DNA from: Glaesserella sp.
GTDB taxonomy: Bacteria > Pseudomonadota > Gammaproteobacteria > Enterobacterales > Pasteurellaceae
Length of the DNA stretch: 64,000 nucleotides
Reading direction: 5' to 3'
NCBI RefSeq assembly: GCF_041817755.1
Contig: NZ_JBGYBX010000044.1
Span: 12,573-76,572, forward strand
Position numbers: made by a program. This document shows, in pieces, positions 30,001 through 36,000 of this stretch. The first letter of the stretch is position 1, and the number at the start of each line of letters is the position of its first letter.

Positions 30001-33000
30001 ATTATCATTATAATTTATCCGCAATAATTGCTATGGGGTAGATAATGAAACATGAAATTCAAGATAAATTAAAGCATATCAGCCAAGAAGAGCATATTAA
30101 TTTCCTATTAGCTGTGGAAAGCGGTAGTCGGGCGTGGGGATTTCCTTCTCCAGATAGTGATTACGATGTGCGGGCGGTTTTTATTCGTCCGCAACAAGCT
30201 TATTTATCTATTGAAGAACCGAAATCGACGTTTGAATATATTGAAAATCAATGGTTTGATGTTGGCGGATGGGATCTACGCAAGGTATTACAATTATTAC
30301 GTAAATCCAATGCCGTATTATTAGAATGGTTTAATTCGCCTATTGTTTATCAACAGCAAGAGGTATTTGTCAAAGATATTTCTCCGCTTTTAAATGAATA
30401 TTTTCAAGTGGCTCCCATAGTGCATCATTATCGTGGTATCGCAAAAAACGCATTATCGCAATTAGATTTAAATCACGAAATAAAATTGAAAAAATGGTTT
30501 TATGTATTGCGCCCGTTATTAGCAGCCGATTGGGCAGCAAAGAAAAAAACAATTCCGCCAATGAATATTTTTCAACTTTATCTAGATTTGTCGAATACTT
30601 TAAAAGCGGAAATTGACGAATTAATCAATTTAAAAGCAACACAACCTGAGAGCTATTTACATCAATTATCTTCAACATTAATTCGATTTACTCACGATAT
30701 ATATAACGAAATTGATAATTTGCAAATTATTCCTGAAAACAGACCGCTTGCAGTAGAACCTTTGAACGAATTATTTATAAAGACATTAAATAGAATAAGA
30801 TGAACTTAACGATTCAAGATTTAAAAGATCAAAATCTGATTTTATTTGAAGTGATTTCAGGTAGCCGTGCTTATGGGCTTGATTTACCACATTCAGATAC
30901 GGATATTCGAGGAGTATTTTATTTGCCGGATAATGCGTTATATGGTTTGAATTATATTCCGCAAGTTAATAATGAAACAAATGATGAAGTTTATTTTGAA
31001 CTTGGGAGATTTGTTGAATTATTACTACAAAATAATCCTAACGTGTTGGAATTGTTAGCTTCACCAGAGCATTGCATATTATATCGACATCCACTTATGG
31101 ATTTATTAAAGAGTGATTATTTTATTTCTAAGCAATGTCAGCAAAGTTTTGCAGGATATGCCTTTGGACAAATAAAAAAAGCTCGTGGGTTAAATAAAAA
31201 AATTGTTAATCCTATTCCTAAAGAGAAAAAAAGCTTATTAGAATTTTGTTTTGTTCTTGAACAAGATAAATCCATTCCATTAAATAAGTGGTTGGTTGAC
31301 TCAAATTTAAACCAAAAACAGCTTGGATTAGTTGCGATAGAACATGCTAAAAATCTTTATGCGGTATTTTTAGACCGAGATTGTCAGTTGGGTTATCAAG
31401 GCGTGATGAAGAATGAAGAAGATTCGGTTATCCTGAAAAGTCGGGTTGAGAAAGGCTTATCACCGGTGACTTATTTGATCTTTAATCAAGAAGGCTTTAG
31501 CAGCTATTGCCGAGATTACCAGTCTTATTGGCAGTGGGTGGAAGAACGAAATGAAGAGCGTTACAACAATAACCAAGCGCATGGTCAACAGTATGATTCA
31601 AAAAACGTAATGCATACTTTCCGTTTATTAGAAACGGCAAAAGAGATTGCATTATATGGTGAAATTCGTGTTCACCGACCAAATAGAGAGGCGCTATTGG
31701 CAATCCGTCGCGGTGAATTTACTTATGAAGAACTGATTTTGCGATCGGAGCAACTCATGGCGGAAATTGAAGTACTGTTTGCTCAATCCGATTTACCTGA
31801 ACGTGCAGATCGTGAACAAGCAATACAGGCTCTGGTTGCAATCCGCCGGCAATTATATCGATGAGAATAACATGACAAGAACAGATAACTACGAACAACG
31901 TTTTGGCGGAATCGGTCGCCTTTATACGCCTGAAGGATTAGCAAAGCTACGTCAATCGCATGTGTGTGTGATTGGTATCGGCGGTGTTGGCTCTTGGGCG
32001 GTGGAAGCTTTGGCGCGTTCAGGCGTGGGGAAACTTACCTTGATTGATATGGATGATATTTGTGTCACTAATATCAACCGTCAAATTCATGCAATGTCAG
32101 GCGAAATCGGAAAACTGAAAACCGAAGTAATGCAAGAGCGTATTGCCAAAATCAACCCTGAATGTGAAGTCACGATCATTGATGATTTTCTCACGCAAGA
32201 TAATTTGAGTGACTATCTGCTGCGTGGTTATGATTATGTGATTGATGCGATTGACAGTGTGAAAGTCAAAGCGGCGTTAATCGCTTTTTGTAAGCGTCAT
32301 AAAATTAAAATAATTACCACGGGCGGTGCAGGCGGGCAAACGGATCCGACCCAAATTCAGATCACCGATTTAAGCAAGACCATTCAAGATCCGCTGGCTT
32401 CAAAAGTGCGCAGCTTGTTACGCAAAGAGTATAACTTCAGCCAAAACCCGAAGCGTAAATTTGGAATTGATTGTGTGTTTTCAACTCAGCCGTTAATTTT
32501 TCCGAAAATGAGCGAAGGTTGTGAAGTATCTGCTACGATGAACTGCGCCAATGGTTTTGGGGCGGCAACGATGGTGACGGCAACCTTTGGTTTTTTTGCC
32601 GTCAGCCGTGTTATTGAGAAATTACTGCGCTAATTTTGCAAATTTTTACGCAAAACAGACCGCTTGTTTAAAAGCAAACGTTTGCATTTTTACGACAGAA
32701 AACTTATACTACACGCCTAGTGCCAAAAGGAACTAGACATGCAGTACCAAACATATTTTACAAAATCGAAAAAGTATTCTCAGTCAAGCCTTGTTCAACC
32801 ACGAGGTTTGACTCTTTTTTTATTCATTTCAAATCAAGATCCCAATAGTTAGGGATCTTTTTTTTGCCTAAAATTTGCGTAAGAGGATAAATAAACAATG
32901 AGTCAGTTAATTCGTACACTAAAAAGCCATATTCGTGATGAGGTCATTAAAAAAGGCGGGTGGGTCAATTCTCATGCACATGCGGATCGTGCATTTACCA

Positions 33001-36000
33001 TGACACCTGAGAAAATTAAAATTTACCAAGAAGCCAATTTGCAACAAAAATGGGATTTAGTGGATGAAGTGAAACGGAATTCGACGGTGGAAGATTATTA
33101 CCGCCGTTTCAGCCAAGCGATTGAGCTGATGATTTCACAAGGGGTGACTGCATTCGGCACCTTTGTCGATATCGACCAAGTTTGTGAAGACCGTGCGATC
33201 TTAGCCGCCCATAAAGCCCGTGAGGTGTATAAAAACGACATTATTTTAAAATTTGCCAATCAAACGCTGAAAGGAGTGATTGAGCCGAATGCACGGAGAT
33301 GGTTTGATATCGGTTCGGAGATGGTCGATATGATTGGCGGTTTGCCGTATCGTGATGAATTGGACTATGGCAAGGGGCTGGAAGCGATGGATATTTTGAT
33401 GGAAAAGGCAAAATCCCAAGGCAAAATGTTACATGTCCACGTTGATCAATTTAACAGCCAAAAAGAGAAAGAAACGGAACAGCTTTGCGATAAATCGTTA
33501 GAGCACGGTATGCAAGGGCGGGTTGTTGCGATTCACGGCATTTCGATTGGTGCACATCCGAGAGAATACCGCCAAATGCTGTATAAAAAAATGAAAGCGG
33601 TGGATATGATGATGATTGCCTGCCCGATGGCGTGGATTGACAGCCCGCGTAAAGATGAAGTATTACCGTTTCATAATGCCTTAACGCCCGCCGATGAAAT
33701 GATCCCGGAAGGGATTACCGTGGCAATCGGGACGGATAATATTTGTGACTATATGGTTCCTCTCTGTGAAGGCGATATGTGGCAAGAGTTGAGCTTATTG
33801 TCTGCAGGCTGCCGTTTTACCAACTTGGAAGAAATGGCAAATATCGCCAGTATTAACGGGCGTAAGGTGTTAGGGTTAACTGCGTAATCCGTGAAAGTAA
33901 CAAGCGGTGCGATCTGCAAATTATTTTGCAGATCGCACCGCTTGTCGTTGAATAGCACGTAAAATAATATTCAACGTTATTTTGTAAATTAGGCTTTATC
34001 ACCGATAAGAACGGATTCCAATGCAATTTCAATCATATCATTGAAAGTTAATTGACGTTCTTCTGCCGTGGTTTGTTCGTGAGTGCGAATGTGATCCGAA
34101 ACGGTACAGATAGTTAATGCTTTGGCACCGAATTCTGCGGCAACGCCGTAAATCCCTGCGGCTTCCATTTCAACCCCTAAAATGCCGTATTTTTCCATCA
34201 CATCAAACATAGACGGATCCGGTGTGTAGAAAAGATCGGCGGAGAATAAGTTGCCGACACGGACATCTACGCCTTTTTCTTTTGCCGCTTGAACAGCCGC
34301 TGCCGTCATATCAAAATCGGCAATTGCCGCAAAGTCGTGATCTTTAAAACGCATACGGTTGACTTTTGAATCCGTACAAGCACCAACACCGATAACGACT
34401 TCACGTAATTTCACGTCTTGGCGAACCGCTCCGCAAGAACCGACACGGATGATTTTTTTCACGCCGTATTCAGTGATTAACTCTTTGGCATAAATAGAGC
34501 AAGACGGGATACCCATACCGTGTCCCATTACAGAAATACGGCGCCCCTTATAAGTTCCGGTATAACCGAACATATTGCGTACATTCGTTACTTGTTCTGC
34601 GTTTTCTAAGAAAGTTTCAGCGATATATTTCGCACGAAGCGGATCGCCCGGCATTAAAACGACATCGGCAAATGCACCGGCAGGTGCGTTAATATGTGGA
34701 GTCATGTTATGTTCCTCTTAGTTAGAATGGAGAGATTAATATCCCGTTACGTTTTGATTTACTTGCTCATCCTTTAAGGTTGCAAGCAAATTTGCTAATA
34801 AACTGGAGGCGCCAAAGCGGAAATGCGCTTGGTTGATCCAATCTTTTCCTAAAATTTCAGCACTCAAGGCAAGATATTGTTGCGCTTCTTCGGTGGTTTT
34901 GACGCCGCCGGCCGCTTTAAAGCCGACTTTATCCGCAACACCTAAATCACGAATCGTTTCAAGCATAATACGTGCAGATTCAAGCGTCGCATTAACAGGC
35001 ACTTTACCTGTTGAGGTTTTGATAAAATCCGCTCCCGCTTTAATCGAAATTTCACTGGCTTGACGGATTAATTCAGGTGTTTTTAATTCACCCGATTCAA
35101 TAATGACTTTTAAAGCAACATTAGCTTGAGTACAAACCGCTTTACACTGTTTGACCAATTCGAATCCTACTTTCTCATTGCCGGCGATTAAGGCTCGGTA
35201 TGGAAAAACTACATCTACTTCATCGGCTCCGTAAGCCACTGCCGCTTTGGTTTCGGCAACGGCAATGTCGATATCATCGTGACCGTGAGGGAAATTGGTT
35301 ACTGTAGCAATTTTCACTTGTGGCGTACCTTGCGCTTTTAACGCTTTACGTGCAATAGGGACAAAACGTGGGTAAACACACACTGCTGCCGGCGTACCGA
35401 ATTCGGTTTTACCTTGTTGGCATAACGCAATAACTTTGTCATCTGTGTCATTATCGTTTAATGTAGTTAAATCCATTAAAGATAAGGCTTGTTGTGCGAT
35501 TTGTTTCAAATTCATGGTTACTCCTTATAAACGCAATCGTTTAACTTGGCTATAAACGACAACACCACAGTTTCCTGTGGTGTTGAGAATGTGTTTTTAT
35601 CGATTACAATACGGCGCCGCCGATACCGATAAATAAACCTGCAATGGCCGCACTCATTAAGTTGGAGAGTGTACCCGCCGCAACGGCTTTGATTCCCATG
35701 CGCGCTACGTCACTACGACGATTCGGTGCCATACCGCCTAAACCGCCGATAAGGATAGCAATAGAACTCAAGTTTGCAAAGCCACAAAGTGCAAAGGTGA
35801 TGATCGCAATCGTTTTTTCACCTAATACGACCGGCGCACTTTCCGGTTTTAAGTAGTTGGCAAAATCGGCATAAGCAACGAATTCGTTTACGACCAGTTT
35901 TTGTCCGATTAACGAACCGGCTACTTGTGCTTCGGCTCCCCAAGGTACGCCGATAATCCAAGCAAGCGGTTGGAAAACATAACCTAATAAAGATTGTAAT

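What the first reader, a model, noticed from the sequence alone, without database searches (positions are those of the whole stretch)
32672..33887. PurR-box promoter, a leader with two tandem intrinsic terminators crossed by a 37-codon ORF, and a truncated CodA-like amidohydrolase
A near-perfect PUR box (AAGCAAACGTTTGCAT) overlaps the -35 of a TTGCAT-17-TATACT promoter. The ~180-nt transcript region before the amidohydrolase start contains two strong terminators (32782-32821 and 32836-32865), and I see no convincing promoter after them. A 37-codon ORF with a good RBS (ATG at 32739) is translated straight through terminator 1, and its stop codon (32850-32852) lies inside terminator 2. Ribosome occupancy could therefore act as an antiterminator. 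Alternatively, the promoter makes a PurR-controlled ~100-150-nt sRNA or small protein. The downstream enzyme resembles the CodA catalytic barrel but lacks both beta-sandwich extensions. It sits beside deoD-deoC-nupC, which suggests a nucleobase or nucleoside deaminase of unknown specificity. PurR control of codBA in E. coli is established knowledge; the rest is inference.
Basis: partly seen in the sequence, partly recalled or inferred. Interest (0 to 1): 0.65.

Follow-up and report, generated by a model that had tools for sequence, protein, structure and literature searches.

The report
PurR-controlled leader-peptide attenuator of orphan amidohydrolase
A purine-repressor promoter is followed by a short translated leader that runs through two transcription terminators, an arrangement like the E. 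coli pyrBI attenuator, and it controls a conserved Pasteurellaceae enzyme of unknown function; it is unannotated but of a familiar regulatory kind.

Summary
These are the PUR box over the -35, TTGCAT-17-TATACT, two hairpin-plus-U-tract terminators, a 37-codon ORF that crosses terminator 1 and stops inside terminator 2, and a 329-aa CodA-like barrel.

Eighty Pasteurellaceae loci show that leader and gene travel as one cassette, in two regulatory forms.
- **Class A** (the window; Glaesserella, Actinobacillus, Mannheimia): a PurR box in 32/32 loci and a strong, covarying terminator 1.
- **Class B** (Aggregatibacter, Pasteurella, Avibacterium and others): no PurR box. A conserved hairpin buries the leader AUG and resembles a PyrR binding loop below the Rfam threshold. 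The upstream ORF runs to the enzyme's start codon in 16/18 genera. Fifteen loci carry the pyrBI-type AATTT start region.

There is no room for a promoter after terminator 2.

Best reading: a ribosome-dependent, pyrBI-like attenuator under PurR. For class A, the open reading frame alone is weak evidence, because a second frame is open almost as often.

The enzyme belongs to NCBIfam PRK06886. It has Gln where CodA has its catalytic Glu. Its adjacency to deoD is not conserved.

Verdict: a new member of a known kind.

The parts
32672..32687 (.). PurR operator (PUR box) AAGCAAACGTTTGCAT, overlapping the -35 hexamer
   Evidence: 24.7 bits on a matrix of 15 H. influenzae PurR sites, the best in the window. 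It is kept at the same position in 32/32 class-A loci and absent in class B, where the maximum is 3.9 bits.
32682..32710 (+). Sigma-70-type promoter: TTGCAT, 17 nt, TATACT
   Evidence: Read directly from the sequence. The consensus scan lists the same site one base shifted. TATACT is near-invariant in all 81 loci.
32717..32736 (+). Hairpin at the predicted 5' end of the transcript (CUAGU/ACUAG plus CC/GG). The leader's SD sequence AGGA (32728-32731) sits in its loop and 3' side.
   Evidence: About -7 kcal/mol. It starts 6-7 nt after the -10 in 61/81 loci. It is invariant within class A. Variants elsewhere are CCAGUG/CACUGG, UCAGU/ACUGA and CCGC/GCGG.
32739..32852 (+). Leader ORF of 37 codons (MQYQTYFTKSKKYSQSSLVQPRGLTLFLFISNQDPNS). 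It crosses T1 and stops in T2.
   Evidence: A leader ATG after the SD is present in all 81 loci. The peptide sequence is not conserved. The frame is open past T1 in 13/14 class-A genera, but frame 2 is open in 10/14.
32782..32821 (+). Terminator 1: 13-pair hairpin (32782-32813) plus U-tract, followed by the U-rich stretch UAUUCAUUUC
   Evidence: -17.3 kcal/mol. Seven of 10 pairs have compensatory changes in 30 leaders.
32836..32867 (+). Terminator 2: 8-pair hairpin (32836-32859) plus U8; the leader stop codon lies inside it
   Evidence: A T2 hairpin in this position was found in 24 of 43 class-B loci and in almost all of the 38 class-A-type loci, 93-120 nt after the leader ATG, with covarying stems. 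The geometry matches the E. coli pyrBI attenuator, which lies 88-107 nt after the pyrL ATG.
32883..32887 (+). SD sequence (GAGGA) of the amidohydrolase gene
   Evidence: Read from the sequence. A purine-rich SD is kept before the ATG in the alignments.
32898..33887 (+). Amidohydrolase of the PRK06886 family (329 aa): CodA-like (beta/alpha)8 barrel without the beta-sandwich domain
   Evidence: NCBIfam NF005365, 602 bits. AlphaFold2 model pLDDT 94.5. Best structural matches are 5-methylcytosine deaminase and CodA, TM-score 0.83-0.86 normalised to the query. H26, H28, D183, H213, D280 and D284 are invariant. Q184 replaces CodA Glu217.
33901..33944 (.). Bidirectional terminator after the gene: 20-pair inverted repeat built from two ACAAGCGGT uptake-signal-like sequences
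   Evidence: It ends a monocistronic unit and also faces deoD.

Best explanation
The region is a two-layer switch for one monocistronic gene.

Layer 1 (inferred from sequence and established PurR biology): PurR with its purine co-repressor binds the PUR box over the -35 and blocks initiation.

Layer 2: transcripts start about 32716-32718 with a 5'-terminal hairpin that holds the leader's SD sequence. They then carry a 37-codon leader ORF and two intrinsic terminators.
- If no ribosome follows the polymerase closely, T1 and then T2 form, and a transcript of about 105 or 150 nt is released.
- If a ribosome initiates at 32739 and keeps up, it covers the 5' arm of T1. It then sits on its stop codon inside T2. 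Neither hairpin forms, and the polymerase reaches the amidohydrolase gene.

This is the logic of the E. coli pyrBI (pyrL) attenuator. There, coupling is set by UTP-sensitive pausing in U-rich leader segments. The U7 tract plus UAUUCAUUUC between T1 and T2 could play that role here. The signal itself is inferred, not shown.

The sister clade keeps the same cassette but swaps the inputs. It has no PurR box. A hairpin resembling a PyrR binding loop buries the leader AUG, and 15 loci have a pyrBI-type AATTT start region. This argues that the enzyme is a pyrimidine-regulated salvage or catabolic function.
For: - Anatomy is confirmed.
- The PurR box is the top score in the window and is conserved in place in 32/32 class-A loci.
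- There is no promoter and no room for one between T2 and the SD.
- T1 and T2 are real RNA hairpins by covariation.
- SD plus ATG is present in all 81 loci.
- The class-A leader frame is open past T1 in 13/14 genera, and the stop lies in or next to T2 in most.
- In class B, the leader frame reaches within 20 nt of the gene ATG in 16/18 genera. Stops in the variable part number 7/35/37 by frame.
- Two A. actinomycetemcomitans strains differ by a +1 and a -1 indel that together preserve the frame.
- E. coli pyrL contains its attenuator 88-107 nt after its ATG and stops 3 nt before pyrB.
- Fifteen class-B loci have TATACT, 7 nt, then AATTT, the pyrBI slippage geometry.
- The class-B hairpin loop CNGNGA varies only at the N positions in 28 distinct sequences, and it aligns to Rfam PyrR at 22.8 bits, E 0.63.
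- PyrR proteins are present in class-B genera.
- The leader is single-copy and found only upstream of this gene.
- No Rfam family matches it.
Against: - There are no transcript-end, transcription-start or ribosome data. The public RNA runs were metagenome contigs only.
- In class A, frame 2 is open past T1 almost as often as the leader frame (10/14 against 13/14). Per-sequence shuffle P values are only 0.05-0.9. Translation of the window's ORF therefore rests mainly on the conserved SD-ATG and on analogy with class B.
- The frame relative to T1 differs between genera.
- Two class-A loci (L015, L018) stop before or inside T1.
- In Actinobacillus sensu stricto the SD-to-ATG spacing is about 15 nt, which is poor for initiation.
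- The U-rich segment before T1 is not universal.
- nhmmer finds no sequence similarity to the E. coli pyrBI leader.
Confidence: 0.55

Rival explanations
1. The promoter makes an independent PurR-controlled small RNA (about 105 nt ending at T1, with T2 as back-up), or a small protein. The amidohydrolase is expressed only by leak-through.
For: A strong promoter plus a strong terminator with a U7 tail is the usual sRNA architecture. T1 is far stronger than a mere pause hairpin.
Against: - The region between the ATG and T1, which would hold an sRNA seed or a peptide, is the least conserved part. It even differs between the window and L001, whose enzymes are 100% identical.
- The element is never found away from this gene.
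- The gene has no promoter of its own.
- There is no Rfam sRNA match, including the Actinobacillus and Aggregatibacter sRNA families.
- It is not among the Hfq-bound sRNAs reported for A. pleuropneumoniae (PMC9577009).
Confidence: 0.12
2. Termination at T1/T2 is set by a trans-acting factor or small ligand that binds the leader RNA. Examples are a protein on the 5' hairpin with its GGA, such as CsrA, or a riboswitch-like fold. The ORF is then incidental.
For: - The 5' hairpin is invariant in class A and presents GGA in its loop.
- Openness of the leader frame is statistically weak in class A.
- Class B does carry a conserved protein-site-like hairpin.
Against: - No alternative antiterminator pairing is apparent.
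- The leader between the hairpin and T1 is too variable for an aptamer.
- No Rfam hit.
- A factor that blocks the SD would still act through leader translation. That is a refinement of the main model, not a replacement.
Confidence: 0.15
3. The 5' hairpin acts as a pyrC/pyrD-type start-site switch. Transcripts started at the C residues 6-7 nt after the -10 (high CTP) form the hairpin and hide the leader SD. Transcripts started 2-3 nt further down at A or G cannot form it, so leader translation and read-through rise when pyrimidines are low.
For: - The spacing between the -10 and the hairpin is fixed at 6 nt in 61/81 loci.
- The first stem bases are C, C/U, and then A, G.
- The SD's GG is paired in the hairpin.
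- From memory, E. coli pyrC and pyrD combine PurR boxes with exactly this device.
Against: This is purely a resemblance. There are no start-site data. A 5'-terminal hairpin could equally serve mRNA stability.
Confidence: 0.1
4. T1 and T2 merely insulate the enzyme gene from read-through out of the upstream tcdA gene, and carry no regulatory function.
For: tcdA (ends at 32633) has no obvious terminator of its own on the plus strand.
Against: - The terminators lie downstream of the gene's only promoter, so they would also stop its own transcripts.
- The cassette is conserved where the upstream neighbour differs, for example a divergent TPP-riboswitch gene in Actinobacillus and Mannheimia.
Confidence: 0.04

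Closest known systems
E. coli/Salmonella pyrBI leader (pyrL): UTP-sensitive, translation-coupled attenuation plus reiterative transcription at AATTTG
   Same: - A promoter is followed by an SD-ATG leader ORF that runs through an intrinsic terminator.
- The terminator lies about 90-120 nt after the leader ATG and has the tail UUUUUUUUGCC.
- A U-rich segment lies upstream of the attenuator.
- In class B, the leader ORF ends at the structural gene's start codon, and 15 loci have the AATTT start region 7 nt after the -10.
   Different: - nhmmer detects no sequence similarity.
- The window has two tandem terminators. Its leader stops inside the second one, about 45 nt before the gene.
- It has a PurR operator, a 5'-terminal SD hairpin, and no AATTT start region.
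- The controlled gene is an orphan amidohydrolase, not aspartate transcarbamoylase.
- UTP dependence is untested.
Thermus ZO5 pyrR-pyrB leader: PyrR site over a leader-peptide start, with the translating ribosome preventing terminator formation (recalled from Van de Casteele et al. 1997, J Bacteriol; not checked here)
   Same: Class-B relatives combine a hairpin resembling a PyrR binding loop, which contains the leader AUG, with a leader ORF that crosses a terminator. PyrR genes exist in those genera.
   Different: - The window (class A) has no such hairpin.
- PyrR binding is unproven.
- The upper-stem sequence differs from Bacillus sites.
- The Rfam score is below threshold.
- pyrR itself carries no such hairpin upstream.
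E. coli codBA, pyrC and pyrD: pyrimidine genes under PurR plus a nucleotide-sensitive initiation device (from memory)
   Same: A CodA-like gene sits behind a PUR box at the promoter, with a second, nucleotide-related layer of control.
   Different: The second layer here is a leader ORF with terminators, not slippage or start-site switching. The enzyme fails the CodA family cut-offs.
Cytosine deaminase CodA and 5-methylcytosine deaminase (PDB 1K6W, 3O7U, 4R7W)
   Same: The same (beta/alpha)8 barrel: TM-score 0.83-0.86 normalised to the query, with HxH, the beta-6 His and the beta-8 Asp conserved.
   Different: - The N- and C-terminal beta-sandwich domain is absent (329 aa against about 426).
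- Glu217 is replaced by Gln184, which is at least 90% conserved in the family.
- Sequence identity is 21-25%.
- Scores on the NCBIfam CodA models are 59-79 bits against cut-offs of 403-483.

Membership tests
pyrBI-type translation-coupled attenuator | Leader ORF with SD and start codon that extends through the terminator hairpin | tested here: met
   The ORF 32739-32852 covers T1 (32782-32813), and its stop lies in T2. E. coli pyrL has the same layout.
pyrBI-type translation-coupled attenuator | Leader reading frame kept open in relatives beyond chance | tested here: inconclusive
   Class A: open in 13/14 genera, but frame 2 is open in 10/14. Class B: 16/18 reach the gene start, against 0/18 and 3/18 for the other frames.
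pyrBI-type translation-coupled attenuator | U-rich, pause-prone segment upstream of the attenuator | tested here: met
   CUUUUUUUAUUCAUUUC lies between T1 and T2. This is sequence only; pausing was not tested.
pyrBI-type translation-coupled attenuator | Read-through depends on UTP level and on leader translation | not testable with these tools
   Needs in vitro transcription/translation or reporter genetics.
pyrBI-type translation-coupled attenuator | Sequence homology to the pyrL leader | tested here: not met
   nhmmer profiles of both leader classes give no hit on the E. coli pyrBI region at E <= 10.
pyrBI-type translation-coupled attenuator | AATTT slippage-prone start region 7 nt after the -10 | tested here: not met
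   The window has ACACGCCTAGT. The motif is present in 15 class-B loci only (PMC7039003).
PurR regulon promoter | 16-bp PUR box of high score placed to occlude the promoter | tested here: met
   24.7 bits, overlapping the -35, best in 64 kb.
PurR regulon promoter | Site conserved in orthologous promoters | tested here: met
   32/32 class-A loci score 13.7-25.5 bits at a fixed distance.
PurR regulon promoter | PurR binding and purine-dependent repression | not testable with these tools
   Needs EMSA, ChIP or a purR mutant.
Rfam RF00515 PyrR binding site | Score at or above the gathering threshold of 54 bits | tested here: not met
   Window: no hit at E <= 10. Class-B leader L061: 22.8 bits, E 0.63.
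Rfam RF00515 PyrR binding site | CNGNGA hexaloop on a 6-bp upper stem, with a 5' UAA bulge and a lower stem | tested here: not met
   Absent in the window. Present in class B: 28 distinct sequences, with C, G, G and A invariant. The stem sequence there differs from the Bacillus consensus.
Cytosine deaminase (CodA) | Catalytic Glu217 after the beta-5 His (HxxE) | tested here: not met
   HVHVDQ aligns to DVHCDE of 4R7W. The Gln is at least 90% conserved in 32-35 family members.
Cytosine deaminase (CodA) | Beta-sandwich domain formed by the N and C termini | tested here: not met
   The match covers CodA residues 52-345 only. The model is a bare barrel. TM-score normalised to the longer target is 0.66-0.69.
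NCBIfam NF005365 (PRK06886, function unknown) | Whole-protein score above the curated cut-off of 340 | tested here: met
   602.3 bits over residues 1-328.

The most novel reading that the evidence does not exclude
The cassette is a family-wide, multi-input pyrimidine/purine switch in Pasteurellaceae whose sensor was swapped during evolution.
- One clade uses PurR at the promoter.
- The other clade uses PyrR bound to a hairpin that hides the leader-peptide start codon. That would be the first RNA target of PyrR in gamma-proteobacteria. It would act through a ribosome-dependent attenuator and, in some genera, alongside pyrBI-type reiterative transcription.
- The controlled PRK06886 enzyme, with Gln in place of the deaminase Glu, would be an undescribed pyrimidine salvage or catabolic activity.
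Probability: 0.35. Interest if true: 0.7.

Novelty: new member of a known kind. Interest (0 to 1): 0.5.

Why it matters
- It assigns a concrete, testable control mechanism to a highly conserved Pasteurellaceae gene of unknown function (81-100% protein identity across the family). It also links that gene to nucleotide metabolism by its regulation rather than by gene neighbourhood.
- It offers a natural comparison of one attenuator chassis with two different inputs: a PurR operator, or a PyrR-like RNA hairpin plus an AATTT start region.
- It suggests what PyrR may regulate in Pasteurellaceae; I found no published account of its role there.
- For genome annotation, the leader and its two terminators are not in Rfam and could be mis-called as an sRNA.

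Tried and rejected
- **Public RNA runs** were metagenome contigs without direction or ends, so they give no transcript map. 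The DNA runs are pig and oral metagenomes, useless for per-genome presence or absence.
- **Rfam**, at gathering and at permissive thresholds, on the window and 16 loci: nothing on the leader except sub-threshold PyrR (class B) and AaHKsRNA82 (on T2 and its tail).
- **Metagenome scan** for AAAAATCNGNGAATTTTT, meant to find other PyrR-like sites: 119 of 120 hits were chance matches in unrelated environments.
- **pyrR** was not found in the window or next to the gene. There is no hairpin upstream of pyrR in a class-B-type genome.
- **Shuffle tests** on single leaders and Fisher combination over crude clusters were not significant. I therefore rely on genus-level frame comparisons and say where they are weak.
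- **Literature searches** found no description of this leader, of PRK06886, or of PyrR function in Pasteurellaceae. Several key papers were not held.
- **A promoter between T2 and the gene** was rejected, because any -10 there would start transcription at or after the ATG, downstream of the conserved SD.
- **A functional small protein** was rejected, because the N-terminal halves of the peptides are unrelated even between near-identical genomes.

Full report
**What is in the window**

The sequence shows, in order:
- The 16-bp box AAGCAAACGTTTGCAT (32672-32687), overlapping TTGCAT (32682-32687).
- 17 nt, then TATACT (32705-32710).
- A hairpin at the predicted transcript 5' end (32717-32736), which contains AGGA.
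- An ATG at 32739 opening a 37-codon ORF.
- Terminator T1 (stem 32782-32813, 13 pairs, then CTTTTTTT).
- A U-rich spacer.
- Terminator T2 (stem 32836-32859, then T8). The ORF's TAG (32850-32852) lies inside T2.
- GAGGA, then the ATG of a 329-codon gene (32898-33887).
- A 20-pair bidirectional terminator (33901-33944).

The 185-nt leader folds far better than shuffles: -43.5 kcal/mol, z = -4.5, 0 of 200 shuffles as stable.

**The PUR box**

I built a matrix from the 15 H. influenzae PurR sites listed in PMC3739930. The window's box scores 24.7 bits, the best in 64 kb, and is identical to the purL site.

**Comparative set**

The enzyme is 81-100% identical across 80 Pasteurellaceae species loci. 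The window is closest to Glaesserella.

Every locus has TATACT, an AGGA-type SD and a leader ATG upstream of the gene. Profile searches find the leader once in the window and only in front of this gene in the loci. The leaders fall into two classes that follow the deep split of the family.

*Class A* comprises the window, Glaesserella, Ursidibacter, Nicoletella, Mannheimia, Actinobacillus sensu stricto, H. ducreyi and the H. parahaemolyticus group.
- All 32 loci have a PurR box of 13.7-25.5 bits at a fixed distance from the leader ATG.
- The 5' hairpin CUAGU/ACUAG is invariant.
- T1 is strong. Seven of its 10 pairs show compensatory changes.
- T2 stems covary: AGATCCC/GGGATCT, AGATCTC/GAGATCT, ATCGC/GCGAT, ACCGC/GCGGT.

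*Class B* comprises Aggregatibacter, Pasteurella, Avibacterium, Lonepinella, Rodentibacter, Mesocricetibacter and others.
- There is no PurR box; the maximum score is 3.9 bits.
- The leader begins with the near-invariant sequence AUGUUAUUAAUUAAAAAUCNGNGAAUUUUUCAUAACAU. This is a weak hairpin (-3.4 to -6.3 kcal/mol) with the AUG in its lower stem.
- Its hexaloop varies only at the two N positions across 28 distinct sequences.

**Is the leader ORF translated?**

In class B the answer is fairly clear.
- At one locus per genus, the leader frame runs to within 20 nt of the enzyme's ATG in 16 of 18 genera. Across all class-B loci the stop often overlaps the gene start, as ATGA or at +17.
- In the variable part of the leader, stops by frame number 7/35/37. 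The other two frames are fully open in 0/18 and 3/18 genera.
- Two A. actinomycetemcomitans strains differ by a +1 and a -1 indel in two T-runs, and together these restore the frame.
- Three loci (L033, L048, L053) have an in-frame TGA in the hairpin loop. These lack recognisable terminators.

In class A the evidence is weaker, and I say so.
- The frame is open through T1 in 13/14 genera, with stops of 1/37/7 by frame. But frame 2 is also open in 10/14 genera.
- Single-sequence shuffle tests are not significant.
- The frame relative to T1 differs between genera.
- L015 and L018 stop early.
- In Actinobacillus sensu stricto the SD-ATG spacing is long.

What does hold for class A is the following.
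- The SD-ATG module is conserved.
- The stop lies in or within 12 nt of T2 in most loci.
- The peptide sequence is not conserved. The window and L001 encode identical enzymes but unrelated N-terminal leader halves. This argues against a functional small protein or an sRNA seed.

**The gene depends on read-through**

Only about 30 nt separate the T2 U-tract from the gene's ATG. This stretch contains the conserved SD. The scan finds no plus-strand promoter there, and any -10 in it would place the start site at or after the ATG. T1 and T2 therefore sit between the only promoter and the gene.

**Comparison with pyrBI**

I checked the E. coli K-12 record.
- pyrL (135 nt) contains the attenuator hairpin 88-107 nt after its ATG. 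The hairpin's tail is TTTTTTTTGCC.
- pyrL ends 3 nt before the pyrB ATG.
- In the Pasteurellaceae leaders, T2 lies 93-120 nt after the leader ATG. The window's T2 has the same TTTTTTTTGCC tail.
- The pyrBI start region AATTTG, 7 nt after the -10, supports UTP-sensitive slippage (PMC7039003).
- Fifteen class-B loci have TATACT, 7 nt, then AATT(T/C).
- Class B also has a hairpin (CAATG...CATTG) followed by a T-run ahead of T2. This resembles the hairpin-plus-U-rich arrangement ahead of the pyrBI attenuator.

There is no detectable sequence homology to the pyrBI leader. The claim is therefore 'works like', not 'is a member of'.

**The PyrR lead, for the sister clade only**

- A permissive Rfam scan of a class-B leader gave RF00515 (PyrR binding site) as one of its top matches: 22.8 bits against a gathering score of 54, E 0.63.
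- The alignment places the CNGNGA loop, a 6-bp upper stem, the 5' UAA bulge and the lower stem in register.
- Under identical conditions the window gives no PyrR hit.
- PyrR proteins exist in Pasteurellaceae and are named in Rodentibacter, Avibacterium, Pasteurella, Histophilus, Cricetibacter, Mesocricetibacter, Necropsobacter and Aggregatibacter-type MAGs. All of these are class-B-type genera.
- In one such genome, pyrR lies in the run purM-purN-pyrR-surA and has no such hairpin upstream.
- From memory, a PyrR site over a leader-peptide start, with the ribosome as antiterminator, was proposed for Thermus ZO5.

I could not test whether the window's clade lacks pyrR, nor find further sites.

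**The enzyme**

- It matches NCBIfam NF005365 (PRK06886, 'hypothetical protein') at 602 bits. It fails all CodA models.
- The AlphaFold2 model (pLDDT 94.5) is a bare (beta/alpha)8 barrel.
- The best PDB matches are 5-methylcytosine deaminase and CodA (TM-score 0.83-0.86 normalised to the query, 0.66-0.69 to the target), then AtzC.
- The family is small: 71 representative clusters at E <= 1e-30.
- In 32-35 members at 28-91% identity, H26, H28, D183, H213, D280 and D284 are invariant. Q184 is at least 90% conserved at the position of CodA Glu217. H181, which corresponds to CodA His214, is replaced in some members.
- 'Truncated' is therefore the wrong word, and deaminase chemistry is not assured.
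- deoD lies next to the gene only in the window, not even in L001-L004. The nucleoside-gene neighbourhood therefore carries little weight. The regulatory inputs (PurR, a PyrR-like hairpin, AATTT) are the better functional clue.

**Verdict**

The element is real, conserved and unannotated. The best-supported mechanism is PurR repression plus ribosome-dependent read-through of two tandem terminators, in the manner of pyrBI. The nucleotide signal that sets coupling is inferred. It is a new member of a known kind. The clade-specific swap of sensors is the most interesting, and still unproven, aspect.

Noticed in passing
window 32632-32667: TTTTGCAAATTTTTACGCAAAACAGACCGCTTGT, which contains an ACAAGCGGT-type uptake signal sequence, recurs in many unrelated contexts in metagenome contigs. 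The contigs match only this 35-nt piece and then diverge, so it is a dispersed intergenic repeat.
   Followed up: no
window 33901-33944: The terminator shared by the amidohydrolase gene and deoD is a perfect 20-pair inverted repeat made of two uptake-signal-like sequences (ACAAGCGGT / ACCGCTTGT). It produced spurious miRNA-family hits in Rfam.
   Followed up: partly
window 35531-35546: ACGCAATCGTTTAACT scores 14.3 bits on the PurR matrix and lies between nupC and deoC, just upstream of deoC. It may be an operator for a LacI-family regulator such as PurR or CytR.
   Followed up: no
window 32739-32821 compared with L001 3845-3925: The window and L001 encode 100% identical enzymes and share promoter, 5' hairpin and T2. 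The segment from the leader ATG through T1 is replaced, however. The window's version matches that of L009. This suggests recombination within the leader.
   Followed up: partly
class-B loci, e.g. L061 about 3760-3785 and L056 about 3755-3780: A conserved box, ATAG(C/T)CAAAACC(A/G)ATTATATTTTT, sits where class A has the PurR box, over the -35 region. It matches no operator I could name.
   Followed up: no
L081-L083, 4173-7564: In a class-B-type genome, pyrR lies directly downstream of purM-purN and upstream of surA-rsmA-apaH. An 85-nt gap precedes it, with no PyrR-like hairpin.
   Followed up: partly
L073 4001-5409 (Avibacterium gallinarum): The match to the 329-aa enzyme spans 1409 nt instead of about 981. 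This suggests an insertion or disruption of the gene in this strain.
   Followed up: no
L116 (metagenome contig BNJU01001424.1): A class-B leader hairpin is followed by only 42-45% identical, overlapping two-frame matches to the enzyme. This may be a decayed copy or an assembly problem.
   Followed up: no
window 42650-42775 (-) and 46355-46476 (+): An FMN riboswitch (106.6 bits) and a ribosomal S15 leader (107.9 bits). These are the only Rfam families that reach their gathering score in the window.
   Followed up: no
window 30045-31864: Two adjacent, overlapping genes both hit Pfam RlaP (RNA repair pathway DNA polymerase beta family). They lie upstream of tcdA.
   Followed up: no
L017, L022 and L049, about 3574-3721 (-): In Mannheimia, Actinobacillus and H. 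ducreyi, a TPP riboswitch on the opposite strand lies about 100 nt upstream of the leader promoter. The cassette there shares a divergent intergenic region with a thiamine-controlled gene.
   Followed up: no
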